A stretch of 64,000 nucleotides of DNA, from contig NC_058381.1 of NCBI RefSeq assembly GCF_018350175.1, forward strand, positions 18,042,001-18,106,000, written 5' to 3'. This document shows positions 369-4,509 of the stretch, piece after piece; the stretch's first letter is position 1, and each line of letters starts with the position of its first letter. The DNA is from Felis catus. Lineage: Eukaryota. The notes under the pieces are model-generated. The model had not been told where the DNA came from and ran no database searches. It worked only from the letters and a program-made list of their open reading frames with translations. Position numbers and translations under genes: made by a program.

Positions 369-3300
369 CTTGGCATAATCCAAAGGAAGTTGGTCCTCAG
401 GGCATTTGAAGACTCCTTCACTGTGAAGGGGGAGGGGACAGAGTCAGGCTCCAGCTATGGGAAAGGAGAACCCAGGTCCCACCCCTCAACCAGGGCAGCC
501 TCCCTCTCACTAGACCTGTCCTCAGCCAGAGGCCTGCAGGTACCCACTTGCCTAGCACCCCAGAAGATCCTAGCTCTTGTCCTGGGGAGAGGGTTGTGGG
601 CCCAGTGGAGACAGACAGCTGCCTCAGACAGCATTTGGCCAACAGGTGGCAGCTGGTACCCCTCCCCCCAGGAGGGCAGCTGGACTGGGAGAGGGACAGG
701 ACACCTGCCCTCCACCCTGTTAAGTTTTCGGCGGCAGGGGGTGAGTGCTGAGATGAAGTGCCAGGGCTGCCCGGCCCCCAGCAGGGATCTCGTCCCAGAA
801 CCCAGGGCAAAGGTCAGCTTGGGGCCACTTTACCCCATCCCTTCCCTCCTCCCGTGAGGGTGTGCCTCCTAAAGCAAGGAGGAGGAGAGGCTCACTCTAA
901 GTCACTGTTCACACTCCCATCCAGTCCTGACCACCTGCCTCTGCGAAGGGGCTGCGTGTTCCCATTTTGCAGATGAAAGAACCGAGACGGGGGGGGGGGG
1001 GGGGGGGGGGGTTAGCAGCGGCTGGACGTCAGTCTGACTCCCCGCCTCACACAGGTTCTACTACCCCACAGACACCGAGGAGAGGCTGGGGCGACAAAAA
1101 CCGCCCAAGCAAGCACAGCCAAGACTATGGTCACCGCAGGGCACACGCTGAAAGCTTTCTGACCCTGCACCAACGAATCCACTGACACGCCTTCTTCTAC
1201 CAACATGCCCTTGCTGACCCCAGCCAGGACCAGTCACACACACACCTGGCATGGCCTGAGCAGAGCGAGGGCTCACCCAGTAGGGCTGAAGGCCCTCAGG
1301 CGCGGCATTCCTGGCAGGTCTGAGTCAGGTAGGTGGGAGGCAGAGATCAAGGCAGAAGCGGAAGCCACATGGCAACCCTGTCCACGACAGAACTTTGTAG
1401 GACCTGGGCAGTCCGTGCCCCGGCTGCCCAAAGGATTTCTAGCACCCATCTCCCCTGACCCCCACTACCACCACCGGCCACGCCGCCAATACCAAGAACA
1501 ATACGTGTCCAGGCACCGAAGAGGTGTGCCCGTGCCCACAGGGCAACCAGCCTTCCTGGACCAACCTGAGTAATAGCCCCGGCAGGAATGGGGAAAGAGG
1601 GGGGTGGGCCATGGGGGAGGGGTCTGCTGGGCTGCTCCAGGAATGTGCTGATTTAGTGGTTTTGGAGACAGGGAGGGGACTAAGGCAAGTCCCCAGGCTT
1701 CAGGCAGAAGATTAGTCGGAGCAGCTTGGGGCCCCGCCAGGACAAAGGTTCTGCGGGGGCTATGGACACCCTTGCTTGTAGGATAAGGGGTGGTGGTGAG
1801 GGACAGAGCCTGCTCAACCACTTCTTTCCTTCGGGGGGCCTCAGCAGCATCGCTCAAGCTCTAGGGGAGGAGGCAGTGGAGGGGGGGTGGGTGGGGAAAG
1901 CAGGGGCCAAGACTGCTCCAGGCGGTGCAGTGGAGGCCCAGGCCCAGGGGAGAAAACAGGATGGGGGGAGGGGGCTGTGGGAGAGGAAGAGGGGATTTCC
2001 GGGAGGGGGAGGGGCAGAAGCTGGGGAGAGGGACAGAGGAGGTGGAGGGAAACGGCCTGACAGCCCCCTCCCAGGCAGTCGGGGTGGGTCAGCTGGGAGT
2101 GGGGGCAGGGGCTCAGCTGGCCTCATCTGGAAACCAGAGGGCCGGGGTAGGGCGCCGCGGAAGACAATGGGACTGTGTGTCTGTAGGGGAGTATGTGTGT
2201 ACACTGAAGGGAGGAGGGAGGACAGAGGAGGGTGAGGGAAAAGGAGGAGGGGGCAGCACAGCAGCTCTTGCAGGAGCATATGTGAGGGCAGGAGCCGGCC
2301 CGGGCTGCGGGGAACTGAAAACAAAGGGCCTGCTGAGATTTCCGCCAGCTAGGGGCTGCGGAGGGCTGAGAGAGGGAGGGGAGCAGCACTGAAGGCAGGA
2401 GCCCCAGGAGCGCTCCCTGCCTGCGCCCCTAGAACCCCTCAGCGAACAACCTCCAGACAGGCGGCAGTGGCTGACCTAGCTTTTCCCTGGGGAAAAGGGA
2501 GCACGACCTCTTCTTGGGGCACGACCTCCCCAGGAATGAGGGCTCCCTCGTCTTGCCTCCCTACACCTGACGTGAGCATTTCCCAGCAAAGGCGTTCGAT
2601 TCAGGACACCGCAGGGTGCCCAGAACTCAGCAAACGCCCCACGGGCCAAGGGGCCACCTGGTTCAGTAACACTCAGGGTGCGACCCCCTCCCTAACGATT
2701 TATAGACGCCCCGCGGTATTGAAGATCCCCAGGGGCAAGGAGGGACACCCAAGGGGTTCCACTGCTTCAGGGGCGATCTGTACCGTCACAGTCCTCCCAC
2801 TGTTGTGGGACCAAAAGCAGCCCGGGCTTAAAACCCAGTTAAGCCTTTAAGTAACTGTGTGATCGTGGGCAAGCCGCAGCCTTTTTTGAATCTCTCGTTT
2901 CATCATCTGTGAAATGGGAGAACAATAGCTGCCGTTCTCGAATTGTTAGAATCAGAAGAGGTTAGATGGGCGGAAACTCCGGAGGCTTAAGGTACTGCCC
3001 GGGACAGAGGGTTTTGTCCTCCTCTTCCCGTAAGGATTCAAAGTTCAAGGATGAGGCCGCTCCGGCTTTCAGGTGAGGGGGAGGGCCGGCCACGGGTCAG
3101 GAAGGGCGTCTTCTCCCACCTCCACCCCGCAGGCTGGCACGGAATTCTTCCGAACGGGCGCGGGCGCCAGTGGGCCCCGGGCCCCTTCGGATTAGTGCGT
3201 GGGGTCCTCCCTCGGGGCCTGACGTCACCGCCACCCCGTGACGTCACGGTGGGCGCCCCTGAGGTCACGGAGCCGCGGCGCAGACAAAGGCCCGGCATGT

Positions 3301-3522
3301 CTCCGGCCCGGGCCCCTCCCCATGCGTCGTCCCCCCTCGCCGTCGCCACCGGCCGCTCCCCGCTACCCCCGGCCCGCACCTGAGGAACTCCTGCAGGCAG
3401 GTGTCGCAGAAGCGGTGGCCGCAGGTAGAAACCTGCACAGGCTCGCGCATGGGCTTCCCGCACAGCGGACACAGCAGCCGCCGCTTGGGCTTCTCCAGGA
3501 ACTTGTAGTCGAAGCCGGGCAT
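369..3522 (-). CDS. TRAF4: TNF receptor-associated factor 4, partial: coding exons 1 (3380-3522) and 2 (369-420); gene continues past the left edge
   Basis: Exon 1 encodes MPGFDYKFLEKPKRRLLCPLCGKPMREPVQVSTCGHRFCDTCLQEFL(S), a RING, with donor AG|gtgcgg in phase 2. Exon 2 encodes (S)EGVFKCPEDQLPLDYAK with cag| acceptor and |gtgagt donor. Matches the TRAF4 N-terminus. Confidence 0.98.
637..655 (+). promoter_or_regulatory. Candidate CTCF site in TRAF4 intron 1
   Basis: ggCCAACAGGTGGCAGctg, one mismatch to the CCASYAGRKGGCRS core. Confidence 0.4.
1277..1449 (-). CDS. Candidate alternative first coding exon of TRAF4 (57 codons + 2 nt)
   Basis: gagATGG start at 1449 opens MGARNPLGSRGTDCPGPTKFCRGQGCHVASASALISASHLPDSDLPGMPRLRAFSPT, ending at donor TGG|gtgagc in phase 2, which joins exon 2 in frame. 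No transcript evidence available. Confidence 0.45.
2845..2965 (+). mobile_element. MIR fragment
   Basis: actgtgtgatcgtgggcaag...gtttcatcatctgtgaaatggg core. Confidence 0.65.
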
Positions 3523-4489: not shown

Positions 4490-4509
4490 AGGCAGGACTG
4501 GGCTTGCCC
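4490..4509 (-). promoter_or_regulatory. Candidate p53 response element of TRAF4, lying in the NEK8 3' UTR
   Basis: Minus strand GGGCAAGCCC AGTCCTGCCT: one perfect RRRCWWGYYY half-site plus one imperfect half-site with no spacer, about 1 kb upstream of the TRAF4 ATG. TRAF4 is an established p53 target. Confidence 0.55.

What the first reader, a model, noticed from the sequence alone, without database searches (positions are those of the whole stretch)
1277..1449. Candidate alternative first coding exon giving a RING-less TRAF4
Seen: on the minus strand of TRAF4 intron 1, an ATG in good Kozak context (gagATGG, 1449) opens 57 codons (MGARNPLGSRGTDCPGPTKFCRGQGCHVASASALISASHLPDSDLPGMPRLRAFSPT). 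It ends at a strong donor TGG|gtgagc in phase 2, the same phase as canonical exon 1, so it joins exon 2 as ...SPTG-EGVFKCPEDQ. The ORF track misses it because unspliced it is only 58 aa. A second in-frame ATG (MPRLRAFSPTG) exists, and a G-rich promoter-like tract (about 1860-2420) lies upstream. Established: exon 1 supplies six of the RING zinc ligands needed for E3 activity. Inference: the isoform would keep the zinc fingers and TRAF domain but lack ligase activity, so it could act as a scaffold-only or dominant-negative form. It may already exist as a predicted isoform in databases.
Basis: partly seen in the sequence, partly recalled or inferred. Interest (0 to 1): 0.7.

Follow-up and report, generated by a model that had tools for sequence, protein, structure and literature searches.

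The report
Conserved TRAF4 intron-1 exon, RING-less isoform
A small exon inside the first intron of the cat-family TRAF4 gene matches predicted isoforms already listed for sea lion and four rodents, and would likely give a minor TRAF4 lacking its ubiquitin-ligase RING domain, most likely from the shorter second start codon rather than the 57-codon one.

Summary
The ORF (ATG 1449), second ATG (1308) and phase-2 GT donor after 1277 are in the sequence. Alone they are near chance: 197 of 1000 shuffles give such a frame, 49 with strong Kozak. Support comes from relatives: predicted TRAF4 isoforms of sea lion, two rats, grey squirrel and gerbil join this same exon to exon 2 and lack the RING. What they share is ATG 1308 (11 codons, 433 aa), not ATG 1449: sea lion starts at another Met, and 5 of 5 informative unnamed mammalian ORFs have Val there. 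The 11-residue peptide diverges far faster than the protein body. No read evidence was obtained in this species. A rival stays open: AG acceptors at 1319/1310 would make a 43/34-nt cassette that turns exon 2's first codon into a stop. The 'promoter-like' tract is CpG-poor, with no GC or TATA box. Verdict: likely a real minor exon, already annotated as a prediction, function untested; the 480-aa form is unsupported.

The parts
1277..1449 (-). Candidate alternative exon, long reading (57 codons + 2 nt); its true 5' end is unknown
   Evidence: sea lion model P0102 aligns over 1407-1276 at 89%
1447..1449 (-). Upstream ATG, strong Kozak, not shared with the relatives read (Val in 5 of 5 informative unnamed ORFs)
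1277..1308 (-). Shared core: ATG 1308 and 10 codons + 2 nt to the donor; gives 433 aa when joined to exon 2
1271..1276 (-). 5' splice site, intron side (GTGAGC), phase 2, 6.7 bits
   Evidence: same join point in P0102, P0087, P0099, P0096
1311..1321 (-). Two candidate 3' splice AGs (exon starts 1319 and 1310) after a pyrimidine-rich stretch; cassettes of 43 or 34 nt would shift the frame and make the first codon of exon 2 a stop
   Evidence: 5.7 and 3.4 bits, ranks 20 and 37 of 186; the gene's true acceptors 1.9-10.6; use not shown
1439..1612 (-). Out-of-frame upstream ORF (57 codons) that ends just past ATG 1449
1240..1248 (-). Competing, stronger donor (last exon base 1246), best-scoring GT of intron 1; not in frame for ATG 1308
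1860..2420 (.). Purine/pyrimidine-skewed tract; CpG-poor, no core-promoter motif; holds several acceptor-like AGs
3380..3522 (-). Canonical TRAF4 exon 1 coding part (six RING ligands)
369..420 (-). TRAF4 exon 2 (52 nt; starts TGA, a stop in the shifted frame)

Best explanation
The stretch ending at the donor at 1277 is likely a minor alternative exon of TRAF4, shared by carnivores and rodents, that likely acts as a first exon spliced to exon 2 and would be translated mainly from ATG 1308 into a 433-residue TRAF4 without a RING domain. Shown: frame, phase, loss of the RING match, and the same exon in predicted isoforms of five species. Inferred: transcription from a weak intronic start downstream of the CpG island; translation; the 11-residue leader is only an in-frame start, not a functional peptide. 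The product would keep the zinc fingers, coiled coil and TRAF domain, so it would still trimerise and reach membranes but could not ubiquitinate; at low abundance it would dilute ligase activity slightly rather than act as a strong dominant negative. ATG 1449 is likely a lineage-specific extra start that adds 47 unconstrained residues if the exon reaches that far.
For: Predicted isoforms with this exon on exon 2: Zalophus XP_027480995.1 (47-aa leader), Rattus norvegicus XP_017452777.1 / A0A8I6AJ00 and R. rattus XP_032768419.1 (MPCLGAFSLAG), Sciurus XP_047400778.1 and XP_047400779.1 (MPCLRAFSPAG), Meriones XP_060243201.1 (MPRAFSPPG). They map to 1308-1276 of the window (E 6e-30, 0.09, 2e-6, 1e-4 within 4.5 kb). 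An unspliced unnamed ORF (P0128), found by homology and not by splicing, keeps the 1308 Met and ends in Gly exactly at the donor. The sea lion model starts at window 1416, upstream of both candidate acceptors, so there the exon is longer than a 34/43-nt cassette. All four isoform proteins lose every RING Pfam match and keep zf-TRAF and MATH. The TRAF domain governs trimerisation and is sufficient for membrane targeting (PMC4292048 passages); RING deletion removes some TRAF4 functions (PMC7191261 passages).
Against: No read evidence in this species: 0 reads laid from 4 of 4 raw runs on 300-1200, no test; no lay covered the exon itself. No felid model with this exon among the proteins listed, though only 15 of 65, 15 of 67 and 15 of 246 members of the main clusters were shown. 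Only 4 of 41 fetched proteins with a non-exon-1 N-terminus on exon 2 use this exon; others map to at least four other intron-1 regions, which looks like widespread low-level splicing. Leader divergence 2-4 of 11 residues against 3-15 of 422 in the body (Fisher p 0.0007-0.03). The shared Met and donor are partly an ascertainment effect: species without them would not appear. Protein models do not show whether the rodent exon is first or internal. That XP_ models rest on RNA-seq junctions is my background knowledge, not checked here. No promoter motif.
Confidence: 0.45

Rival explanations
1. It is an internal poison (cassette) exon: exon 1 splices to an AG at 1319 or 1310, the 43- or 34-nt exon shifts the frame, the first codon of exon 2 becomes TGA, and the mRNA would be destroyed by nonsense-mediated decay, tuning TRAF4 levels. 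The database proteins would then be longest-ORF calls.
For: Both cassettes are 1 mod 3 and stop exactly at the start of exon 2, giving 62- or 59-aa peptides with five junctions downstream. The Ser/Ala/Leu/Pro-rich part of the long ORF is a pyrimidine-rich stretch ending in two AGs that score within the range of the gene's true acceptors. The rodent match begins right after the 1310 AG. The gerbil's two-codon loss leaves the length 1 mod 3. Intron sequence just downstream of the donor is also conserved (11 of 12 residues against a gibbon model). Other intron-1 cassettes are annotated in pangolin and opossum.
Against: The acceptors rank only 20 and 37 of 186 AGs in intron 1. The sea lion model runs 140 nt upstream of the donor, past both AGs. 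Exon 2 begins with TGA whatever precedes it, so the stop needs no special explanation. TRAF4 was not found in the supplements searched of two poison-exon papers (one file not searched).
Confidence: 0.25
2. It is a cryptic donor inside a conserved regulatory intron next to an active CpG-island promoter; rare spliced reads were turned into gene models and no meaningful protein results.
For: Sequence features are near chance. At least five different intron-1 regions serve as leaders in different mammals. Neighbouring intron DNA is conserved in other reading frames too (1601-1461 at 70-74% residues in another frame). The leader is unconstrained compared with the body.
Against: The same donor and Met recur in carnivores and three rodent families and in an unspliced ORF not selected for splicing; all residue changes need only one base change, so the 33 nt are well kept over a deep split.
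Confidence: 0.22
3. One reading: a functional 480-aa isoform from ATG 1449, driven by a promoter at 1860-2420, acting as a dominant negative.
For: Strong Kozak context and open frame; sea lion model shares 39 of the last 47 residues.
Against: Val at this position in 5 of 5 informative unnamed ORFs; frame open to the donor in 1 of 6; the sea lion Met is ACG here; overlapping upstream ORF 1612-1439; no promoter features; no Pfam family for the ORF.
Confidence: 0.08

Closest known systems
RefSeq/UniProt predicted TRAF4 isoforms: XP_027480995.1 (Zalophus X2), XP_017452777.1 / A0A8I6AJ00 (rat), XP_032768419.1, XP_047400778.1 (Sciurus X2), XP_060243201.1 (Meriones X2)
   Same: Same exon, same donor, same join to exon 2, no RING.
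   Different: They start at the 1308 Met or, in sea lion, at a Met that is ACG here; none uses 1449. No felid model of it was seen in the partial listings.
Human and gibbon TRAF4 predicted isoforms (XP_011523808.1, 454 aa) and other intron-1 leaders (horse, whales, camel, muntjac, bat, opossum)
   Same: RING-less products made by joining intron-1 sequence to exon 2.
   Different: Different donors; the human leader maps just downstream of the 1277 donor and its frame holds a stop in this genome.
TRAF1 (natural RING-less TRAF) and engineered RING-deleted TRAF2/TRAF4
   Same: TRAF-domain scaffold without ligase domain (PMC3757440, PMC9406534, PMC7191261 passages).
   Different: TRAF1 is a separate gene; the deletions are overexpressed constructs. 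Dominant-negative action is described for TRAF2 mutants in the passages read, not for a natural TRAF4 isoform.
Hybrid first/internal exons (PMC8769537) and poison exons
   Same: One exon could be first in some transcripts and internal in others.
   Different: Neither use is shown here; TRAF4 was not in the one short supplement held.

Membership tests
Alternative first coding exon | Functional 5' splice site joined to the next exon | tested here: inconclusive
   Same join in predicted isoforms of 5 species; 0 reads laid in this species
Alternative first coding exon | Own transcription start (capped 5' ends, no upstream junction) | not testable with these tools
   No CAGE or long reads; no core-promoter motif or CpG island
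Alternative first coding exon | In-frame ATG open into the main ORF | tested here: met
   433 aa from 1308, 480 aa from 1449
Alternative first coding exon | Start codon conserved across species | tested here: met
   Met at 1308 in 4 isoform proteins and P0128; partly ascertained. For 1449 not met
Alternative first coding exon | Protein-level constraint on the new peptide | tested here: not met
   18-36% leader divergence against 0.7-3.6% in the body; no DNA for dN/dS (searches found none)
RING-less TRAF adaptor | RING absent, zinc fingers and TRAF/MATH kept | tested here: met
   Pfam scan
RING-less TRAF adaptor | Expressed protein that enters trimers and lowers ligase output | not testable with these tools
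   Needs proteomics and cell assays
Poison exon | Inclusion creates a stop upstream of the last junction | tested here: met
   Stop at the first codon of exon 2 for 43- and 34-nt cassettes
Poison exon | Used 3' splice site and NMD-sensitive transcript | tested here: inconclusive
   Moderate AG scores only; no reads

The most novel reading that the evidence does not exclude
A conserved hybrid exon works as a two-way brake on TRAF4 ligase: used internally it shifts the frame so exon 2 opens with a stop and the mRNA is degraded; used as first exon its own ATG makes a RING-less TRAF4 that poisons trimers. Both outcomes cut TRAF4 E3 activity while sparing or removing its scaffold role.
Probability: 0.13. 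Interest if true: 0.6.

Novelty: already known. Interest (0 to 1): 0.28.

Why it matters
TRAF4 is an E3 ligase and membrane scaffold tied to development and cancer, and many papers separate its RING-dependent and RING-independent actions with artificial deletions. A natural RING-less isoform, or a poison exon, would give cells their own way to split or dampen these functions, and would affect how antibodies, siRNAs and exon-1 knockouts are read. As it stands the exon is an already predicted, probably minor isoform with no functional study found.

Tried and rejected
Orthologous DNA: two metagenome scans found 0 matches, so no dN/dS. The 58-aa ORF searched against longer proteins: 0 of 8 candidates scored; its exact sequence is not in the collection; the 480- and 433-aa spliced forms could not be looked up by exact sequence. 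P0129 was dropped as an unrelated repeat protein. ESM Atlas gave no answer. AlphaFold of the sea lion isoform: pTM 0.35, residues 1-67 under pLDDT 50, but the alignment has almost no depth there, so it says nothing on disorder. PDB: no TRAF4 RING chain among 37 hits. p53-driven intronic promoter: rejected for want of a site; 20 matches in the window against 23.5 expected, the best near TRAF4 (4490-4509) lies upstream of exon 1. Earlier findings: none. Supplements searched without a TRAF4 hit: (file 13 not searched). PubMed 11275257 (Grech 2000, TRAF gene structure and RING splice variants) is not held and may bear on novelty. One search stopped on a script error and its remainder was rerun.

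Full report
Observation. The minus strand carries TRAF4: exon 1 coding 3522-3380, exon 2 420-369, and five more exons in the neighbouring DNA, giving 470 aa. With intron 6 retained the protein is identical at 562 of 562 residues to a Felis catus UniProt entry, so this is a felid gene. The ORF from ATG 1449, the second ATG at 1308 and the phase-2 donor after 1277 are as described. Spliced in a script they give 480 and 433 aa without stops. Exon 1 holds six of the eight RING ligands.

Chance. On a simple matrix built from recalled frequencies the donor scores 6.7 bits, below the gene's six true donors (7.7-12.2) and below a donor 31 nt downstream (1246, 9.3 bits). In 1000 dinucleotide shuffles of intron 1, 620 held some ATG frame open to such a phase-2 donor, 197 held one of 57 or more codons and 49 one with strong Kozak context. 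The real intron has a second such frame, 3298 to 3120. The tract at 1860-2420 is CpG-poor with no GC or TATA box. Sequence alone therefore does not make the case.

Relatives. A search with the last exon gave 48 proteins; members of 10 clusters were listed, at most 15 each. Of 41 fetched proteins that join a non-exon-1 leader to exon 2 (32 mammalian by my count), 4 use this exon: sea lion XP_027480995.1, rat (XP_017452777.1, XP_032768419.1, A0A8I6AJ00; two species), grey squirrel (two transcripts) and gerbil. They map to 1308-1276, and the sea lion one to 1407-1276. All four lose the RING matches and keep zf-TRAF and MATH. I take XP_ models to rest mostly on RNA-seq junctions; that is background knowledge and I could not see the support. 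Recurrence of one donor in carnivores and three rodent families is the main reason to think the exon is spliced.

Which start. The rodents start at the 1308 Met. Sea lion starts at a Met whose codon here is ACG (1416). Six unnamed, unspliced mammalian ORFs cover the region. Five reach the 1449 position and all have Val. Only P0128 stays open to the donor, where it keeps the 1308 Met and ends; two end at the same earlier residue, one shifts frame and two end sooner (some ends could be contig ends). An out-of-frame ORF 1612-1439 overlaps ATG 1449. So 1449 is likely a lineage-specific start and 1308 the shared one. The 11-residue leader differs at 2-4 positions against 3-15 of 422 in the body, while exon 1 differs at 0 of 47 from the seal and rat proteins; every change needs one base. 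The DNA is kept; the peptide is not under strong selection.

Expression here. Four raw RNA runs (1-2% of each read) laid on 300-1200 gave no reads, which is no test. No lay covered the exon. Two metagenome scans found no orthologous DNA. The junction in this species, its abundance and the start site remain open.

Mechanism. Most likely a weak intronic start downstream of the CpG island makes a minor transcript whose first exon ends at 1277, and ribosomes start at 1308. The 433-aa product would lack the RING but keep the TRAF domain, which governs trimerisation and suffices for membrane targeting (PMC4292048 passages). RING deletion abolishes some TRAF4 functions (PMC7191261 passages), and dominant-negative TRAF2 mutants are known (PMC9406534 passages). 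A dampening role is plausible but depends on abundance and is untested.

Rival. The low-complexity middle of the long ORF is a pyrimidine-rich stretch ending in two AGs (exon starts 1319, 1310). A 43- or 34-nt cassette after exon 1 shifts the frame so that the first codon of exon 2 is TGA, which is a poison-exon layout. Protein models cannot tell first from internal use in rodents; the sea lion model extends past both AGs. Both uses could coexist, as in hybrid exons (PMC8769537, abstract and outline). A third reading is splicing noise: other mammals' models use at least four other intron-1 regions.

Literature. Searches aimed at a TRAF4 isoform, intronic start or poison exon listed no paper on one; several were swamped by papers without TRAF4, and most subscription journals are not held. 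Searches served for background. PMC3198437 (section 6 and one passage) lists human TRAF4 among genes predicted to make alternative transcripts after irradiation, without naming the exon. PMC3757440 and PMC5511239 were seen as passages, PMC11546965 as passages that did not bear on the question. For PMC11632617, PMC7821541 and PMC11188260 I saw search listings and supplement searches only; tables not held as text could bear on the poison-exon question. Grech 2000 was seen only as a title in a reference list.

Verdict. The exon is likely real and is already annotated as a prediction in five species. Interest 0.28.

Noticed in passing
L002:6646-7078 (TRAF4 intron 6, downstream of the window): Intron 6 (92 codons) is in frame and stop-free; retention gives a 562-aa protein annotated in fishing cat, lynx and cat.
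   Followed up: partly
window 3298-3120, minus: A second ATG frame (59 codons) open to a phase-2 GT donor in intron 1; no relative's model seen to use it.
   Followed up: partly
window 1246, minus: Best-scoring donor of intron 1, 31 nt below the finding's donor and followed by a short UG repeat; the adjacent intron sequence matches the leader of human and gibbon predicted isoforms.
   Followed up: partly
window 700-480, 965-930, 2932-2906, 4150-3746, minus: Other intron-1 or upstream regions used as leaders or cassettes in models of horse, whales, camel, pangolin, muntjac, hippo, fruit bat and harbour seal.
   Followed up: partly
window 4490-4509: p53 consensus match with 2 mismatches about 1 kb upstream of exon 1; TRAF4 is a known p53 target. 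Match counts are at chance level.
   Followed up: no
P0014, P0120, P0122, P0123 (opossum): Opossum models show an alternative first exon and a cassette exon in intron 1; no alignment to this window.
   Followed up: no
P0010, P0045: Database NEK8-TRAF4 fusion models in a bat and a fish, probably read-through mis-annotation of neighbouring genes.
   Followed up: no
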